From: Chrysochromulina tobinii
Lineage: Eukaryota
Length of the DNA stretch: 33,278 nucleotides
Reading direction: 5' to 3'
Assembly: GCA_001275005.1 (NCBI GenBank)
Contig: JWZX01002339.1
Span: 1 to 33,278 of the forward strand
Shown here: one piece after another, positions 3,001-33,278 of the stretch
Numbering within the stretch: position 1 is the stretch's first letter
How the letters are laid out: the number at the start of each line of letters is the position of its first letter
Program-made: the position numbers and the translations under genes
The notes under the pieces: generated by a model
Seen by the model: only the letters and a program-made list of their open reading frames with translations
Told to the model about the DNA's origin: nothing
Database searches by the model: none

Positions 3001-6000
3001 GCAGCAGTGTGAGCATCGAGTGTGCCGTCGGTACGTCGGCGACGGCCGCACGCCGAAGGGCTTCGAAGACGACGGCGGTTGCGAGATCGGGTCTGGCGCG
3101 CGCGAGACGCTGCGAGATCAGATGGCGCGCGCAATCCGCACTCCATGGCAACCCTTGCGCCATGAGCGCGGGAGGCGCGACCGGGTCGGCGCACGCGCCG
3201 TAGGCGTGTAGCAGCCTCTCGGCCATCGCGCGCACCAGGCCGCACGGATCCCCCAGCTTGCACAAAGCGAGCACCACCAACGGCACACGGTGCGCATCTC
3301 CCGCGAGCGCACCCATCGCCGCGCTCGTCGCCGACGGCGGAGCGAGCGGGCGCTCGATACGGCGCGACTCGTCTCGCTCGGGAGACGTGTGAGCGGCGCG
3401 GGCCAGACTGTGAACGTTCACACCGGCCTCGTCCCACCCCCAGGGTTGCGCGGACGAGGTGGCGGCGGAGGGGGCGGAGGGGGCGGAGGGGGCGGAGGCG
3501 CGGCCGGGCGTCGGGCGGAGGGACACGAGCACAAGGGCGATGAAGTGGGCATTCGAGGTGGCGGCCGCGCTGGACGCATCGGAGGACTCTTTGGCTTCGT
3601 TGGCGGCACGGTAGCAGGTCTCGAGGCATCGTGGGATAGGGTCGTGGCACGCTGCCCAGAGCGCGCACAGCGCGTCGCGCGCGGCGGAGCTTACGGCCGC
3701 ACAAGGCGAGTGCAGGAGCACCTCAGCACAGCGCAGAGGCAGCCGAGCCTCGAGAGGCCTCCCCTCATCCGCAGGCAGCCCCGAGACGGCCTCGGGCGTG
3801 GCCAGGGCTGCGAGGGCGCGCAGCGCAGCGAGCTGCACCGCCTCGGACTGTGCTCGACACGACGCGCCGAGCTCGTCGGCGAGGGCGCGCTCGACACGGC
3901 GCTCGACACGGGCGGCCCCAGCCGGTGGGAGCCGTTGGGCACTCATCAGCCGTGCGCGTTCGGCCTCGAGTGCGTCGGCCGCTCCGTCGGACGAGAGCGA
4001 GGAGACTAGCTCGGCGACCCGAAGTAGGAGAGCACCTGGGAGCAGCGCCTTTCGCTGTGTGCGGTGCTGCGCGTCGGCGGCGGCGAGGGTGGTGAGCAGA
4101 TGCGGCGTGGTGCGGCTGAGAAGGTCGAAGAAGTGCTTGCGGGCGCGCTGGAGCAGCCAAGCGTGCTGGTTGCCCATCGAGCCATCTGGCCCTTTGAGGG
4201 CCAGGTACTCGAGGGCGCCATGCATCCAGCGCGCGAGTGCGGCGAGCGGTGCGCCCACTTGCGTCGTGAGCAGCGTGCACCATCCGCGCTGGTCTGAGAG
4301 CAGCGCGAGAACGTGCCCGAGCTGTCGCATCTTCATGTGGATGGGCGAGGCGACGTTCTTAGCGTCCCGCCGCCAGTCGGACCAGATGGACGCGTCATTG
4401 AGTTCGGGAGCGAGCACAGAGAGCACGAGCTGCACCGCCGCGCCGCCGCGCAGCTGCCCGAGGACCGCCGAGGCCGCCACGCGGTGTGCCTCGGTGTCAC
4501 ACACGAGCAGGCTCACTCCGTCGCGCAGAAGGCGCTCGACGTCGGAGCGGCACGCGTCGCCCGCGTCATCGTGGCCGAGCACGGCGAGGGCGCACCCGCT
4601 CGCGAGCGAGGCGTACGGCGCCCACGACGACGGCAGTTGCGTGCCCGAGGCCAAGGCCGCCCTCACCCCCCCCACCATGCTCTGCATGCGCTGCATGATC
4701 ATGGGCCACGCCGCACGGAGCGCAAGTGCGCATCCCTCCCCTTCATGCTGGCCGCCCGCCGCAAGGGCGTGCACGATGCCATGCAAGCAGCACAGCCAGA
4801 GCTCCTGATCTCCCTCGGAGCTCCCGCACGCCTCGACGAATGCGCGAAGGTCGGCGCGCGCCGCGGCGTCGCGTAGCTGCGCGGCGGCGGCCGAGCTTGG
4901 GCGAGCCATGGGGGGCGAGCTCGCGCCAAAGCCGCTCCATAGGTGGAGCTGCAGAGGGTCGGAGAGCGCGCGTTCGGCGATGGCGGGCAGCTTCTGGATG
5001 AGCAAGTCGATGAGGCACGCGCTCGTGACGGCGCGAAAGGCGGCGCTCGCGGTGGGCGCGCCAGCGGGCGCGGGCGCGGCGCTGTCGGCGACGGGGGCCG
5101 AGGCCCTGGCGACGGGTGCGACGAGGGCCAAGAGCTGCGCCGCTTCGCCGCGTAACTTGGGGCACTGCTCGGCGAACAAGATGAGGGCGAGAGCTTGCAT
5201 GTCGTCGATGCAGCGGTGGCGCGCGAGGTGACGAAACATGCGTGGGACAGAGAGCCACTCACGCAGCAACGGCGCCACCTGCTGCAGCGCCTCTTGGCGG
5301 CGGGCGAGCGCGGCCGGGTGCAGATCCCTGAGAGTCTTGGTAAGGGCTGCGAGGGCGGCAGGCAGCGTGTCCAGAGTGCCGTTGGCCACGATGTGCGCGA
5401 GCAGCGAGGACGCGGCGGACTGCAGCAGCCGCTCCGTACCGCACAGCTGTGCAGCGAGCAGCGGCAGCAGTGCAGCGGAGATGCCGAGGGCGCGCAGGCA
5501 AGCATCGGTCTTTGCGCCGAGGAGCGCGATCTTGTCGCCCTTGGACTTGCTCTCAAACCCCAGCTGCTGCACTAAGCTCTCCAGGCCCAGCTCCTGCACC
5601 GAGCGCTCGACGACCTCAACGGCTTTGACGTCCGCCTTGAGGCCGAGCTGCTGCCGAAGCAGCTCGACCTTGGTGTAGTCGTCGCCGGGCAGCAGCTGCT
5701 CAAGCGTGATCGGTGCTTCGTCAGGGTGAGGCGGCGGCCGGAGCGCGCCCGCCACGGCGCCCGACGAGCTGGCAGCTGGGTGCGGCCAGAGCAGGCGCAG
5801 GCAGCGCAGGGCACCGTGCATGAGCTGCACAGAGAGCAGCCAAAGCAGTGGCTCGCGAGCGGAGGCTCCCTCTTGGAGGTGCGCGCTGGCGGCACTCCGG
5901 ACGACCATGTGCACGACGCGCTCGGTCACCTGATCAGGGAGGCCATCAGAGACCATCAGAGACCATCAGAGACCATCACAGGCAATCAGTGGCAATCAGT

Positions 6001-7927
6001 GGCAGTCGAAGCTCATCAGTGGCAATCAGTGGCAATAATTTGGCAATCAGTGGCAATCATTTGGCAATCAGTGGTCATCGGAGCACATGAGTGGCAGTCG
6101 GAGCGCATCAGTGCCCAGCTGATGCACAGCAGCGATCGGTCACCTCTGCAGCGTGCGCGCCGAGCGCATCCGGCTGCCTGTGGAGGAGACGGCGCAGTGT
6201 GCCGAGCGCGAGCACTGTGTGCTGACCCCAGCGTTTGGATCCAGCGGATCCCTCCCCCCGCAGCCCTGGCAGCACGATGCGCTCGAGGAGTAGCTTCGGC
6301 TCCACAGAGCCCACGGCGAGCGCAAGGGCGGCATGCCCTTCGAGCAGCTCAGCGTACCTGATGAGGGATGCCATCAGAGGCCATTAGAAACGAGTGGAGA
6401 CCGACCCTCAGTGGTCATCAGAGGGCAATCAGCGTACCGGCGGAGCACGAGCGTGAAGTCCTTGCGATCTCGAGGCATCTCGAGCTGCATCGCGACGGCG
6501 TCCTTGGTGGCGAAGAGGCGATCGAGCAGATCCTTCACTTCTTTCGTCGCGGCGCGGCACGAGAGCAGCAGCGGCAGTTGCAGCCGCATGCAGCGCAGCG
6601 CAATCACCCGGTGCTCACTATGCTTCAGGCACTCCTTGATCTTGCCCAAAAGCTGGACGTGCAGCTCCACTGCCTTCTCACTCAGCCCCTCGCTGAGGCC
6701 GCCGCCGCCGCCGCCGCCGCCGCCGCTGGTGTCGGGGCCGAGGAACCCCACGCCACCCTCGGCACCCCAAGCGGGCACAACAGCGCTGCCCGCGCTGCGC
6801 ACGGCACAGAGCAGCGCGGTGGCAAGCGGCGCGCTCCAACTCTCGAACTTCGCGTTGCGCTTGATCGGCTTCTTGATCTTCTTGATCAGCCACTGCGCAA
6901 GCTGCAGCTCGAGTGCGTGGAGCTGCGCGAGGGCACGCGCGTCGCGCTCCGAGGGCGGCGGCGCCACGCCACCTGAGCGCGCCGCCTCATCCAGCGCCTG
7001 GTCGAGCAGCGCCATCCCGAGCGCCTCGGCCACCGGCCGGCGCAGCGGCTTGATCGCCTGGTTAAAGAGGACGCGAGAGGCGATGCGCTCGAGGAAGACA
7101 CGAGTCGGCTCGGCCGCGCCGCTGCCGCTCGCACCGCCGACAGCGCCGCCGATGGCCGGCAGCCCGCTCCCGCGCGGCAGCTGCACCCCCTGCAGCGACG
7201 AGCACATGGCAAGTGTGCCGAAGTCGGGCGACCAGTCGCTTCGGCCCAGCCAATCGCTGCGGCCGCTCCGGTCGCTGCCCGTATTCTCGAGGTGGAGCAG
7301 CACCTTGTGGGTGAAGGATTCGAAGGAGCGAAAACGCGCGGAGGAACTCTCGCCCAGGTTGCGGCACAGCGCGCGCACGAGCTCCGTCCACAGTGCCTCC
7401 TCGGTGCGGCCACCCAGCGCGAGCAGCCGCCGGCGCGCGGCCTGCTGCCGCGTAGCCGACGACGCTGCGCCGCCAAAGGTGCGGAAGAAATCGAGCGCGC
7501 ACTCTTGGAGGGAGTCCAGCATGATGCTGTCGCGGCAGCACGCCGCTCCCAGCGTCGCGAGCATCGCCTCGCAGAAGACAGTGTTGACAGCGCTCTCGCG
7601 GCTCTCACGGTCCTCTTCGGACGGCGTGGCTGCCCCGGGCCACTCGCGGGCGCGGCGCATCCAGTGCATGAGCTCGGCCGCGACGCCATCACTCGCGTAG
7701 CGGGCGGCCGCGGCCAGCGATCGCAGCGCGAACGCAAAGCCTGAGTGCTGCGACGCCGTGTTGCAGCTTTGGAGTCGCTGGTCCTCCTCAAATGGGTCAT
7801 CATCGAGAGGCGAGCACAGTACCTCGCCGATCCGTGCGTACGCGGTAGCTTCGAAGGCACTCATCGCGTCATTGAGAAGCGAGTGCGAGCTCTCGGCACA
7901 GCTCCATTGGATCTTGCGCTGGGCCAT
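1..7927 (-). CDS. Furry/Tao3/Mor2 (MOR2-PAG1)-like cell morphogenesis scaffold; exons 7927-6438, 6357-6144, 5929-<1; 3' end outside window
   Basis: N-terminal LRSLAAAARY..AELMHW..RESAVNTVFCEA..LVRALCRNLG..ARF and distal RLLTCTAALLPWL..IATVLNNYATSQY..FL resemble Furry N- and C-terminal blocks. Removing two GT-AG introns joins ORF 6374-7945, ORF 6108-6374 and a frame that appears open from 5929 to the window edge. First ATG at 7927. Confidence 0.8.
2486..2550 (-). repeat. 12-nt coding tandem repeat (GCTCGGCACGGC x5.4) encoding (SAVP)n in the Furry-like protein
   Basis: Perfect tandem copies visible in sequence. Confidence 0.9.
5930..6143 (-). other. Spliceosomal intron 2 of Furry-like gene (214 nt)
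   Basis: Minus strand GAG|GTGACCGATCGC...CCCTGATCAG|GTGACCGAGCGC; in-frame stop inside; (ACTGATTGCC)n and (TCTCTGATGG)n 10-mers; removal restores frame. Confidence 0.85.
6358..6437 (-). other. Spliceosomal intron 1 of Furry-like gene (80 nt)
   Basis: Minus strand CCG|GTACGCTGAT...CCCTCATCAG|GTACGCTGAG; removal joins LVLR to RYAELLEGH in frame. Confidence 0.85.
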
Positions 7928-17410: not shown

Positions 17411-17587
17411 GGACGTCCACGACGACGCGTATCCGTACTTTTCGCGAACTTTCGTTGAGCACGGTCAACTCGTGTCGCTTCACAGCAGTGGTCTTTTCTG
17501 TCCTTTCTGCTGGATTTCGTTCTCGTTGACGAAATGCGCTCGCTTTCAGTCCTGGAGAGCGACGTGGCGAGGTCCTCGTGGACGTCC

Positions 17588-18854
17588 ATGGACTCCTCGT
17601 CTGTGGAGGCGAATTCTGCGACAGCAGCCTCCTCCAACGGCGAGCGCCGCCCCGCTAAGAGGGCCAGGCGCTCTTCGCAGGTTGCGGGTTCATCCTCAGC
17701 CGCCGCGCCCGAGCCCGCGGCGGGGAGCGGGACCGACCACCTTACGCCGTCCTCCGACAAGGCACTCGAGCACCTCTCATGCGCTGTGTGTCTATCCATC
17801 CCCGAGGACACGGTTATGCAGTGCCAGCTCGGACACATCATATGCGCCGAGTGCCACCTCCGTGTCTGCATCGAGGACAAACCCATCTGCCCGACGTGCC
17901 GTATGCCGCTCGATCCTCTCAACCCGATCAGAAACGTCCTTGCGGAGCAGACGATCGCGCTGCTGCCGGCTGAGTGCACGAACGCGGGCTGCACCGCCAA
18001 ATGCACGCGCGGTACACTGCACACACATCTCTCGTCCGAGTGTGCCTACCGTACCGCGGTATGCAAATACCATCCACTTGGCTGCAAATGGAGTGGTGTG
18101 CAAAGGGCCTGCGGACGGCACGAGGACCGGTGCAAGAAAGCGGACATGCCCGGTTGGAAGCTGCTGAAGAAGGTGGAGCAGGTGCAGGAGGCACAGGCGG
18201 CGGGAGCCAAGCGTGAGCGCGAGGCCGCCAAAGCCGACGCACTCGTCGTTGCGATGCTTTCCACACGTTGCCGAAACCTCGAAGTGTCCCACGTGACGTT
18301 GCACAAGTGCTCCGCACATGAACATGTTGCAAGCCGGCCTGCCCACTTGGCCTCGGCCGCGTTCCAAGCTCTTGGCTGGCGCTTTAAGCTCTACACCGTG
18401 CACGACAGCGCGAGCGGCACCTACCAGGTGGCCCTCCAAATGCGTGACAGCCGCGAGCTGCCCGTGGACTTTTTCGTGGTGTGTGGTCCCGGTATCCGAG
18501 ACGTTCGCCCCACGTCCGTGAGCCACATCTTCGGGCGTGCCCGCGACGCACGCACCAGCACGCCCGTCAACCATTGCTGAGGGCGACGCGGCCGCGGCGC
18601 TCGCCAACAGCGACAGCCTCGTGCTGCGCATTGGCATCGCCGACCGGCGCCCTGGCCGCCTGTCGCGTGATTTTCAAGGGCAGACCTCGTATGGGGGCGG
18701 CGGTTACGGCGACGAGGACGGCTACGGCGAGGAGCGCGACGACGACGACGACGATGACGGCTGGAATTCGGATTCGAACGACGTCGACGACTTTGACGAC
18801 GATGACGAGTCACTCTATGACCACGACGAAGGTCCTCCGCGGCGTTACCGATAG
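17588..18854 (+). CDS. CYHR1/ZFTRAF1-like RING plus TRAF/SIAH-type zinc-finger protein, with apparent +1 frameshift at ~18569
   Basis: CAVCLSIP..VMQCQLGHIICAEC..CPTCR..RNVLAEQTIALLPAEC..CKYHPLGCKWSG. Deleting one A at 18569-18570 joins ORF 17534-18580 to TIAEGD..SLVLRIGIAD and an acidic tail ending at 18854. Confidence 0.8.
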
Positions 18855-19186
18855 AGTGACTGGTAAGTGACTGGTACCTCTATGGATCATGCTTTGGATT
18901 CGGCGACTGCCATGGGAGCGGGCGGGAGGGGTGGCGTTCAGACCGCTGCTTCGTAGCGCCGCTAGAGGACCTTAGTTCCAGCGCCATGTCGAGCGCGCGT
19001 TGGCGCCTTGTGGGACTCAGGTGGGCGTGGCTGATCGGGGTTCGCGCGAAGTATCAAGTTGTGCTCCTTAGTGCGCGTTGGTGCGAAGCTGTTCACAGAT
19101 CATGTTTGGGTCTGAAGTTTGCGTGATCCTTCGAAACTGAGCACCGCGCGAAAGCCGTGCTGCTCTTGTGGCCGCCTTCGCGGTGG

Positions 19187-30640: not shown

Positions 30641-33228
30641 AGCCCCCTAAGGATGACGGGGCGTCGGAGGCGGCGGCCGAGGGCCCTCCCGCGGCGTTGC
30701 TCCTCCTCACGTCCAAGTTGGACACGTGCGGCGTGGTCGACCATGCGAATGGGCAATACACGTGCGGGTACACCGCGCCTACCCAGGTGGGCTTGCTCCA
30801 AGTTGGGGTCGCCATCAACGGGGCGGATGGGCCGTGCTGCGCGGTGACGGTGGTGCCCGCAGCGGCCGATCCGAGCATGACGACCCTCACGATCGAGCCC
30901 GAGGCGTGCGTCGTTCGCGCGGGCGAGCCTCTCATCGTGATGGTGCAGCCGCACGACGTGTTCGGCAACTGCTGCGAGCTCGCGCCAGCTCAGCTCGAGG
31001 CACTGCTGACAGCCGTCCCGGCCAAGCGAAGCGATCCGACCTCGCCGCCCGCCTCCCCGGCCACAGGAAGCCCCTCGCCCGCCACGCGCTCAGGACAGCG
31101 CGCGGCACGCTCGTGGGGCGTCATCGAGGGAGTGAGCCGTCACCTTGGGGTACAGGCACCGCAGCATCTGTTCGGACCCCTCGCACTACGCCCCAATAGC
31201 ACTCGCGTCGGCACCCATGCTCTGCAGGTGACGTCCCACACATTGATTACACTGGATTACACTGGATTACACTGGATTACACTCGCATCGGCACCCATGC
31301 TCTGCAGGTGCGCTGCCGCGGCACCATCTGCACAGAGCCCATCTACTTCGAGGTGATCCCGGGCGGTACGTGTGCACATCGGTGCACCCTCGTCGAGCTC
31401 CCTGGAGAGCGGGGCCTGTGCGCCAGCGCCAACCCCCCTCGCAAAAAGTTGCTGCCACAGCCCGACTGGTACGACATGACGTTGATCGCTCGCGACGCGT
31501 ACGGCAACCGCACCGGCGTCGGAGGCGACGAGGTCAGCGCCACGCTCGAGATGGAGAGCCTTCGAGGCTCCAAGTTCGCCAGCCGGTTACGCGCCCACCT
31601 GCTGCCGTTAGACCCGGATCCGCCGACGATCATCGATCGCGAGAACGGCACGTATTGCGTGCGCGTGCCGGCGACGCGACCGGTGCGCCCGCCCAAGCCC
31701 CTGGTCTTGCCCCATGCGGAGGAGGACGATGCCACTACCGGTAAACTCAACGCGCTCAAATGGATGGGTAAGGTCGTCCGGCGCAAGGACACGCAGCTCG
31801 AAGCTCTCGCCGTGATCGAGTCGGTCGAGGGACGAGAGGTGACGCTGCGCTGGGTCGCTACCGGCAAGACGGCCAAGGGCAAGCCCGAGGCTCTGCTGCG
31901 TGGGCTGGATGAGCGCACGTTCGTCAGTGAGAAGCTCCAGGGACGTGTGGAGAAGACGGACGCGTGCGCCAGACTTTGCGATCGAACACGCTCTTGAGTG
32001 CTCTCGAGGACCACTGATGACCACTGATGACCGCTGATGACCGCTGATGACCGCTGATGACCACTGATGACCACTGGTTGGTCCCTTCGAATCACTCTCC
32101 CTGTATCGCGCCCCCCGCCCTCCCTCTCACCCCCTACCCTCCCTCTCACGCTCCCTGTATCGCACCCCCCGCCCTCCCTCTCAGGTACGGTGACCTCGAG
32201 ATCAAGGCGCTCGATGCCGAAGATCCCAATGGCAGCCCAGGCGCTCGTGCACTCAGCTACGTCGTCGACGACGGCGCCAAGACCTTTCGGCTGACCCCGG
32301 CTGACCTCATCTCGGCGCTCGAGGAGTACCGTGAGATGATGGAGGCGACCGAGCTGCATGAGGTGAGGCGCTCTTGATTGCTCCTGATTGCGCTTGATTG
32401 TGAGAGGATGGGAGGTAACCGAGCTGCATGAGGTGGGCTGTGGGGAAGTGAGGTGGGCTGTGGGGAACTCGTGCTGCTCATGCGTGGACCGCCGCTGAAA
32501 GCCTCCCTGAATGCCACCGAATGCCTCCCTGAGTGCCACTGATCGTTTCCTTCATCAGGTGCTGTGGGGAAGGTACACGCTGCGCCTCTTCGTCAACGGC
32601 GAGCTAGCCGCGACTGAGGTGCTCGACATTGAAAACCCACTCAAGCTCTTCGGCTCGGCTTCGTCACTACCTAACGGAGTCCTCAAGGCCGTCTCGCGCG
32701 TGAACGCGAAGGCGGCGCTCGAGCAGGTGAGGCACTCTTGATTGCTCTGGATTGCTCTGGATTGCGCTTGATTGCGCTTGATTGCGCTTGATTACTTGAG
32801 CAGGTGAGGCGCACATTCGAGGAGCGAGGGGTCCAGCATGCAAGTGCTCACCACGGCGCCCGCCCCCACTTCCCACAGGTGAGGCGCACTTTCGAGGAGC
32901 GAGGGGTCAAGATGGACAAGGGTCTCGAGAGCGTGCTCAAGGAGAAGGCAGCCGAGATCGAGGAGCTCTTCCTCGACATCTCGGACCGGAACGCCGCGCG
33001 GGAGAAGGAGGAACGTGATGAGCGAGCAAGGGCGCAGCAGGCAGCGGGCCAACAGGCACGTTCACGTTCACACCGGAAGCGCTCCGTCCGCCTAGCTCTG
33101 CCAGGCAAGGAGGAGGTCGAGGACGGGGACGACGGGGACGAGGACGAGGACACTACCAAGGACAGTGACGAGGACGAGAAGGAAGAGGATGCCGACACTA
33201 CCAAGGACGCGGCTGCGGCTGCGGCGGC

Positions 33229-33278
<50 letters not shown>
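26698..33278 (+). CDS. Large Kelch-repeat / IPT-TIG / filamin-type Ig repeat protein; exons 26698-31227, 31308-31963, 32185-32362, 32559-32726, 32879->33278
   Basis: Kelch motifs (RAAHAV..VVAGG, RRHHTL..SFGG, RRAFHS..VLGG, LLLFGG); IPT-like GVTP...SVGGGTPLRLHG.HF; filamin-like G.G...AVAG..T.LRVTA....G.RR.RGGD, D..NGQY, ARDAYGN. Four GT-AG introns restore a continuous frame. Confidence 0.8.
27490..27653 (+). repeat. (CAGCAC)n and (CAG)n tracts encoding poly-QH and poly-Q
   Basis: Directly visible. Confidence 0.95.
31228..31307 (+). other. Intron A of Kelch-filamin gene (80 nt)
   Basis: CAG|GTGACG...(ACTGGATTAC)3...CTGCAG|GTGCGC; phase 0, joins HALQ to VRCRG. Confidence 0.88.
31964..32184 (+). 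other. Intron B of Kelch-filamin gene (221 nt)
   Basis: GC|GTGCGC...(ACCRCTGATG)n...duplicated pyrimidine tract...TCTCAG|GTAC; phase 2, joins KTDA to YGDLEIK; donor less certain. Confidence 0.75.
32363..32558 (+). other. Intron C of Kelch-filamin gene (196 nt)
   Basis: GAG|GTGAGG...TTCATCAG|GTGCTG; phase 0, joins ELHE to VLWGRYTLRLFVNG. Confidence 0.85.
32727..32878 (+). other. Intron D of Kelch-filamin gene (152 nt; internal CAG|GT at 32803/32804)
   Basis: CAG|GTGAGG...(TGATTGCGCT)n...CCCACAG|GTGAGG; phase 0, joins ALEQ to VRRTFEERG. Confidence 0.8.
33230..33278 (+). repeat. (GGC)n microsatellite running to window end
   Basis: Directly visible. Confidence 0.95.

What the first reader, a model, noticed from the sequence alone, without database searches (positions are those of the whole stretch)
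31200..31310. Intron apparently created by tandem duplication of an AG|GT-containing exon segment
Seen: CACTCGCGTCGGCACCCATGCTCTGCAGGTG (31200-31230) recurs at 31280-31310 with one mismatch. The first copy supplies the donor GT and the second the acceptor AG, with (ACTGGATTAC)3 filler between them; splicing restores one clean copy. Known: duplication of a proto-splice site is a proposed but rarely observed intron-gain route, and DNA-transposon introners usually leave much shorter target duplications. Inference: a very recent intron gain.
Basis: partly seen in the sequence, partly recalled or inferred. Interest (0 to 1): 0.75.

Follow-up and report, generated by a model that had tools for sequence, protein, structure and literature searches.

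The report
Young intron with 31-base flank duplication
An 80-base intron in an algal gene is missing from an RNA copy and ends in a near-perfect repeat of the 28 gene bases before it; it likely arose when the start of another intron was pasted into a break in the gene, and two neighbouring introns carry a copy of their own exon-exon join inside, which hints at a repeatable way of building new introns.

Summary
The repeat is real (30 of 31 identical). The segment is a spliced GT-AG intron at 31228-31307: one RNA contig from a sister strain skips exactly 80 nt, and removal restores a frame colinear with a haptophyte-type orthologue. It is not a plain tandem duplication: 49 of 80 nt are non-exonic filler from a dispersed family of 10-mer intron-start arrays. 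Best reading: an insertion flanked by a long target duplication whose second copy supplies the acceptor. It is present in 3 of 3 same-species DNA alleles seen, while 3 of 3 relatives' predicted proteins read through the site: young, not shown to be polymorphic. The larger find: introns 3 and 4 of the same gene (RNA-confirmed) and one outside locus hold an internal copy of their own spliced junction, between a donor-half and an acceptor-half filler. Exon copies at the four clear cases run 7-36 nt per side, against 3-12 nt in the introner and Daphnia passages read. The scan noted the acceptor-half type before in this genome (e1-2577349). The enzyme route (break repair, retro-insertion, mRNA patch) is untested. 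New variant of a known kind; interest 0.62.

The parts
26698..31227 (+). Exon 1 of the host gene (kelch-repeat protein with repeated Ig-like stretches; 2323 aa with the 3' end from L002)
   Evidence: ORF; Pfam kelch hits; length
31200..31230 (+). First copy of the repeat: last 28 nt of exon 1 plus GTG
   Evidence: RNA keeps this copy's base at 31207
31228..31307 (+). Intron I1, 80 nt, GT..AG, phase 0
31231..31279 (+). Filler: 14-nt leader plus GATTACACTG array; member of a dispersed intron-start array family
   Evidence: two more units in L004
31280..31310 (+). Second copy: 28 intronic nt ending in the CAG acceptor (one CpG transition at 31287) plus first GTG of exon 2
31308..31963 (+). Exon 2
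   Evidence: 44% identical to P0033 over 224 columns
31964..32184 (+). Intron I2, 221 nt; no significant exon copy; holds a strain-variable duplication-with-filler near its 3' end
   Evidence: spliced in 3 of 3 RNA runs, not in the DNA run
32363..32558 (+). Intron I3, 196 nt: donor-half array 32363-32399, internal copy of its own spliced junction 32400-32448 (32 nt upstream exon + 14 nt downstream exon), acceptor half 32449-32558
   Evidence: spliced in 3 of 3 RNA runs; 0 of 5000 control windows score as high
32727..32878 (+). Intron I4, 152 nt: donor-half array 32727-32794, internal copy of its own spliced junction from 32795 (9 nt upstream + 30-36 nt downstream), then a widespread acceptor-half module
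   Evidence: spliced in 3 of 3 RNA runs; 0 of 5000 controls
6358..6437 (-). Intron M1, 80 nt, inferred; begins with a 9-nt copy of the next exon's start
   Evidence: frame restoration, one of 6 solutions; not RNA-tested; repeat not significant alone
5930..6143 (-). Intron M2, 214 nt, inferred; begins with an 8-12-nt copy of the next exon's start
   Evidence: not RNA-tested; repeat not significant alone

Best explanation
The 80-nt segment is an intron that is absent from an RNA contig, and it likely arose when a staggered DNA break at a CAG|GTG site was repaired by copying in the start of another intron, with fill-in that would have duplicated 28-31 nt of exon. Shown: the repeat, the splice, the foreign filler, the filler's relatives elsewhere in the genome. 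Inferred: the insert brought the GTGA donor and a 10-mer array; the duplicated exon end, which is pyrimidine-rich and ends in CAG, became the acceptor; synthesis rejoined the gene through a 4-nt microhomology (CACT) shared by the array and the exon. A bare 31-nt duplication would shift the frame and is probably too short to splice, so the filler is what makes it viable. The mirror event (copy of the downstream exon start plus a captured acceptor half) and the two together (I3, I4, L005) would be the same process with one or two template switches.
For: Splice shown in X17; X17 shares 7 of its 11 SNPs in that span with intron-bearing L004, so an intron-less X17 allele is unlikely. Filler unlike flanking exons, longest exact match elsewhere in the window 8 nt. 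The same array lies on other contigs of DNA run X1 at the same depth, at least 2 other loci, and aligns with the donor-side arrays of I2, I3, I4. Donor-type exon copies are 28, 32, 9 and 36 nt; acceptor-type 14, 30-36 and 7 nt: variable, no terminal inverted repeats. In 42 kb surveyed, all 3 copies of non-repetitive exon sequence of 20 nt or more separated by filler sit at splice junctions. A 54-nt duplication-with-filler in I2 is absent from L004, so such events are ongoing and need no outside element. 6 of 10 substitutions between exon and intronic copies are CpG transitions in the intronic copy (P at most 4e-4), so those copies are the derived, decaying ones. P0062, P0048 and P0033 read through the site; P0062 has Q-L where this gene has Q-V. 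Staggered-break intron gain has precedent in Daphnia (PMC4202315, passages).
Against: No intron-less allele of this species was found: 3 of 3 alleles carry I1 (window, L004, P0028). The relatives are 37-52% identical proteins and their DNA was not seen; P0033 could be a spliced gene model and P0062 could come from RNA. Only one contig bridges the splice, from another strain. No YTRAY-type branch motif lies within 60 nt of the acceptor in the window allele. Variable duplications with repeat tails fit retro-insertion equally well. 3 of 4 donor-type events coincide with an acceptor-type event, which needs either one compound event, targeting, or strong selection; none was tested. The sample is 9 introns, 3 of which (I2, I5, L014) show no significant copy.
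Confidence: 0.5

Rival explanations
1. Retro-insertion: a non-LTR reverse transcriptase copied a short RNA (a non-autonomous element or a piece of an excised intron) into a nick, leaving a long variable target-site duplication. Still a new intron, but RNA-mediated.
For: Variable duplication lengths, array tail abutting the second copy with microhomology; the acceptor-half module is matched by very many contigs (summed depth 9468 against about 37 in unique bins of X12; not a copy number). Non-LTR insertions give variable and sometimes very long duplications in Chlamydomonas (PMC9977147, passages); about 5% of classified introners are non-LTR (PMC12130899, section 6).
Against: Array units differ from locus to locus; no reverse transcriptase or full-length element was seen or could be searched for; two independent hits at one junction in 3 of 4 cases need extra assumptions; the I2 duplication uses local filler.
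Confidence: 0.22
2. mRNA-templated patch of an older intron (aborted intron loss): a break in an existing intron was repaired from the gene's spliced RNA, copying the exon-exon junction in and, for I1, replacing the old 3' half. The intron would then not be new.
For: One event explains why I3, I4 and L005 hold their own junction between two intron halves. Spliced RNA can template break repair in human cells, giving whole-intron deletion (PMC12065846, passages). All same-species alleles seen have I1.
Against: Relatives' proteins read through the I1 site, and P0033 is colinear at all 5 sites on a 32-kb contig; P0034 and P0062 appear to run into introns at other positions, pointing to lineage-specific turnover. 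The cited paper reports clean deletions, not junction copies, in the passages seen.
Confidence: 0.15
3. Classic tandem duplication of an AGGT-bearing exon segment (Rogers model), with the filler added or grown later.
For: The duplicated unit spans AG|GT and splicing leaves the protein unchanged; the array length varies between strains.
Against: 49 of 80 nt are not exon-like while the copy is 27 of 28 identical; the array occurs at other loci; a 31-nt intermediate would shift the frame, and the shortest intron in this sample is 80 nt.
Confidence: 0.08
4. Not a true intron: an assembly artefact, or X17 carries an intron-less allele and the window allele is a frameshifted mutant.
For: Only one bridging contig, from another strain; 0 of 5 same-culture RNA runs bridge.
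Against: Identical in L001-L003 (possibly the same source), present in an independent strain and in P0028; X17 groups with L004; same-culture RNA pieces stop at or short of the insert's edges while DNA contigs cover it.
Confidence: 0.03

Closest known systems
[quoted passage not shown]
   Same: A duplicated exon stretch spanning AG|GT gives a precise intron with no protein change.
   Different: There the intron is made of the duplicated gene sequence; here 49 of 80 nt are foreign filler from a dispersed family.
[quoted passage not shown] MAG, bioRxiv 10.1101/2022.06.06.494994, passages; Polarella classes, 10.1101/2020.10.14.339549, parts 1-2 of 4)
   Same: Same splice-site logic, no terminal inverted repeats in the Chrysochromulina case, same algal group.
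   Different: Those duplications are short and fixed per class (4 nt; 3-8 nt in Polarella); here 9-36 nt and variable, the fillers are not end-to-end copies, and donor and acceptor halves meet at one junction.
Staggered double-strand-break intron gain in Daphnia pulex (PMC4202315, passages)
   Same: A copy of the exon end appears at the far end of the new intron; repeated breaks at one site are described.
   Different: Daphnia repeats are 4-12 bp and the introns segregate; here 28-31 bp, present in all alleles seen, with filler from recognisable intron ends.
Dualen LINE and Replitron insertions in Chlamydomonas (PMC9977147, PMC10288648, passages)
   Same: Variable-length target duplications; Replitron-1 inserts at RG targets.
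   Different: Not described as making introns in the passages read; no such element was identified here.

Membership tests
Spliceosomal (U2-type) intron | GT..AG ends and removal from RNA | tested here: met
   one bridging contig from a sister strain
Spliceosomal (U2-type) intron | Branch-point motif near the acceptor | tested here: inconclusive
   Only motif is 62 nt upstream in the window allele; two at 32 and 42 nt in L004. Consensus used is recalled.
Tandem-duplication intron (Rogers model) | Duplicated exon segment spans AG|GT; splicing leaves one copy | tested here: met
Tandem-duplication intron (Rogers model) | Intron body derives from the duplicated gene sequence | tested here: not met
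   filler 16 of 49 and 14 of 49 identical to flanking exons
Tandem-duplication intron (Rogers model) | Orthologues lack the intron | tested here: inconclusive
   3 of 3 distant proteins read through, DNA not seen; 3 of 3 same-species alleles have it
Introner (DNA-transposon type) | Related sequence in unrelated introns | tested here: met
   acceptor module in I4, I5 and L005
Introner (DNA-transposon type) | Short fixed-length target duplication | tested here: not met
   9, 28, 32, 36 nt on the donor side
Introner (DNA-transposon type) | Terminal inverted repeats (many, not all, families) | tested here: not met
   no pair joins the ends of the I1 insert
Introner (DNA-transposon type) | End-to-end similar copies across the genome; autonomous partner | not testable with these tools
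   no whole genome held
Non-LTR retro-insertion | Variable target duplication, repeat tail joined by microhomology | tested here: met
   not specific to this family
Non-LTR retro-insertion | 3' end shared with an autonomous RT-encoding element | not testable with these tools
   no whole genome held
Break-repair intron gain (Daphnia type) | Exon-end repeat at the far end of the intron | tested here: met
Break-repair intron gain (Daphnia type) | Repeat of 4-12 bp; presence/absence polymorphism | tested here: not met
   28-31 bp; present in 3 of 3 alleles seen; small sample

The most novel reading that the evidence does not exclude
This haptophyte lineage builds introns from two separately captured modules, a donor half (GTGA plus 10-mer array, duplicating the upstream exon end) and an acceptor half (branch site, pyrimidine tract, AG, duplicating the downstream exon start). 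Either alone makes an intron at a suitable site; both together trap the ancestral intron-less junction inside the intron, so each such intron records its own empty site and can be dated from one genome.
Probability: 0.35. Interest if true: 0.82.

Novelty: new variant of a known kind. Interest (0 to 1): 0.62.

Why it matters
Source sequence and route are unknown for most reported intron gains (PMC4974935, introduction). Here the filler's source family, the duplicated target and the splice are all visible. If the pattern is genome-wide, introns that carry a copy of their own empty site let gain be dated and break repair be told from retro-insertion and aborted loss with one genome and a sister species. 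Introner screens that need end-to-end similar introns and look for short duplications would likely miss these.

Tried and rejected
No whole genome is held, so the genome-wide count could not be run. Word-index protein searches found no relative of exon 2 or of residues 1060-1510; only the full HMMER scan did. The one metagenome scan gave 4 loci, all same species, none intron-less. Six viral-collection pattern scans gave one locus, L005. The genome-collection scan gave 9 loci, of which 2 (L008, L014) look like algal contamination and 7 like bacterial DNA, left out; one more fragment, L021, and L008 lack the donor end and were not counted. An intron-like stretch in L001:1-835 was seen and not analysed. 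Lack of RNA cover inside I1 is not used as proof. M1 and M2 repeats (10 and 14 nt) fall in the upper tail of the cross-pair control (mean 6.0, max 18, n=56) and are not significant alone. A degenerate junction copy in I5 is not significant (805 of 2000). Local snap-back origin of the filler: longest match within 1 kb is 7 nt. Telomere repeat origin rejected from recall (unit is 10 nt, unlike TTAGGG). The atlas look-up did not complete.

Full report
Observation. The 31-nt direct repeat is at the stated coordinates with one mismatch and did not occur in 60 dinucleotide-matched resamplings. Between the copies lie 49 nt: a 14-nt leader and a GATTACACTG array. The host gene starts at 26698; its frame runs into the insert and stops at 31354, and removing 31228-31307 restores it. 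The protein has kelch repeats.

Organism. No genome is held. The runs that hold the DNA are mixed-culture and freshwater samples. One hit of the host protein is a Prymnesium polylepis protein (P0078, E 4.9e-5), and an earlier scan note calls this genome a haptophyte. GC content and low intron density resemble Chrysochromulina tobin (PMC4580454, passages). That 10-mer arrays are common in haptophyte introns is recalled; the Emiliania genome paper is not held. Placement is an inference.

Splicing. Six RNA runs were laid, all as contigs. X17 record 20 joins 31207 to 31288 and keeps the first copy's base; the only canonical 80-nt cut in that ambiguity is 31228-31307. X17 is another strain (14 differences listed), but 7 of its 11 differences within L004's span are shared with L004, which carries the intron. 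The 5 same-culture RNA runs have no bridging contig. Introns I2-I4 are skipped in 3 of 3 RNA runs and not in the DNA run. The spliced frame is colinear with P0033.

Age. L004 differs at 14 of 1474 exon positions and has I1 at 100 nt, with two more array units and the same mismatch. P0028 reads into I1. So 3 of 3 distinct same-species alleles have it. Three relatives span the site and all read through: P0062 (52% identity, Q-L at the junction, then an out-of-frame tail that looks like an unspliced intron about ten codons later), P0048 (14.7-kb contig, frameshifted tail) and P0033 (32-kb contig, 2215 aa, colinear at all five intron sites). Out-of-frame tails suggest a gene caller that did not splice, hence no intron in that DNA; this is inference, as the DNA was not seen. 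One change in 28 nt gives 0.1-18% divergence. The intron is young on a species scale, older than the split of two alleles.

The filler is foreign. It matches the flanking exons at 16 and 14 of 49 positions, and nothing longer than 8 nt elsewhere in the window. In DNA run X1 the same array lies on other contigs at the same depth, at least two other loci; one flank shows an AG|GT just before the array and another a pyrimidine-rich CAG just after, which suggests introns (not verified). The donor-side arrays of I2, I3 and I4 align with it. The array joins the second copy through 4 shared bases.

The pattern. Nine introns were examined: six in the window, I5 in L002, one in L014 and a putative one in L005. 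Four carry long exon copies. I1 has a donor-half array then 28 nt of upstream exon. I3 and I4 have a donor-half array, then a copy of their own spliced junction (32+14 nt; 9+30-36 nt), then an acceptor half; 0 of 5000 control windows score as high for I1, I3 or I4. L005 has the same layout (36+7 nt), not RNA-tested and at a contig end. M1 and M2 start with 9-12 nt of the next exon, not significant alone. I2, I5 and L014 show no significant copy. In the window plus 8.7 kb of L002, the only three filler-separated copies of non-repetitive exon sequence of 20 nt or more are at I1, I3 and I4; the other hits are ankyrin or low-complexity coding repeats and intra-intron arrays. Six of 10 substitutions are CpG transitions in the intronic copy; CG methylation in haptophytes is recalled, the paper was not held. 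A 54-nt duplication-with-filler in I2 is absent from L004.

Mechanism. Shown: insertion of dispersed intron-start sequence flanked by a long exon duplication that supplies the acceptor. Inferred: a staggered break repaired by copying from other introns, with one switch (I1; M1, M2) or two (I3, I4, L005): 0.5. Retro-insertion gives the same footprint (0.22); together these two make 'new intron by insertion with long target duplication' about 0.7. An mRNA-templated patch of an older intron explains the internal junction copies in one step (0.15). Plain tandem duplication with later filler is unlikely (0.08), artefact very unlikely (0.03).

Comparison. Tandem-duplication gain is described with the intron made of gene sequence (PMC3443670 passages; PMC4974935 abstract and introduction). 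A Chrysochromulina introner carries its 5' site and co-opts the 3' site from a 4-bp duplication (10.1101/2022.06.06.494994, passages). Polarella classes have 3-8-nt duplications (10.1101/2020.10.14.339549, parts 1-2 of 4). Daphnia exon-end repeats are 4-12 bp (PMC4202315, passages). Also seen as passages or one section: PMC12130899, PMC9977147, PMC10288648, PMC8557442, PMC12065846, PMC11282704. Ten literature searches listed no paper on 28-36-nt exon copies or internal junction copies in haptophyte introns; most subscription papers are not covered, and the family tables in the introner papers' supplements were not seen and may hold these fillers. The scan noted an acceptor-type case with a 15-nt repeat in this genome before (e1-2577349); that is an unchecked note, not independent support.

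Verdict. Real, spliced, probably lineage-specific intron; a long-duplication variant of insertion-driven intron gain and not the classic duplication route. The surprise lies in the composite neighbours. Interest 0.62.

Noticed in passing
window 32092-32183; L004 about 1348-1395: The 3' end of intron I2 has a 33-38-nt duplication with local filler (54 nt extra) that L004 lacks: a strain-variable event of the same kind inside an intron.
   Followed up: partly
window 32795-32810 and 32421-32435: The inner AG|GT of I3 and I4 could allow two-step splicing with a zero-length exon; RNA contigs show only the outer pair.
   Followed up: no
window 21308-22142 versus L001/L002 1-835: Two other assemblies match the window only from 22143 on; upstream they hold a different, paralog-like sequence with an apparent intron. 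The window's ORF shifts frame near there (20077-22035, 22157-25978): possible mis-join or structural variant.
   Followed up: no
L005 about 4230-4554: A contig filed as viral ends in haptophyte-like DNA with a composite intron: likely a chimeric assembly.
   Followed up: partly
L008, L014, L021: Algal intron arrays on short contigs inside bacterial MAGs: likely contamination.
   Followed up: partly
L006, L007, L009-L013: Similar 10-mer arrays (3-5 units) sit between genes in seven bacterial genomes; chance or convergence, not examined.
   Followed up: no
P0034 and P0062: Relatives' predicted proteins appear to run into introns at positions where this gene has none (one with a repeat-rich tail), suggesting fast intron turnover in this gene across haptophytes.
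   Followed up: partly
window 17534-18860 and 19187-20077: Apparent frame breaks in a RING-type gene and in the large ankyrin/NTPase gene without visible introns.
   Followed up: no
window 26698-33277: The spliced coding part has 22 AGGT but only 3 CAGGTG; 2 of the 3 are intron sites (I1, I4).
   Followed up: partly
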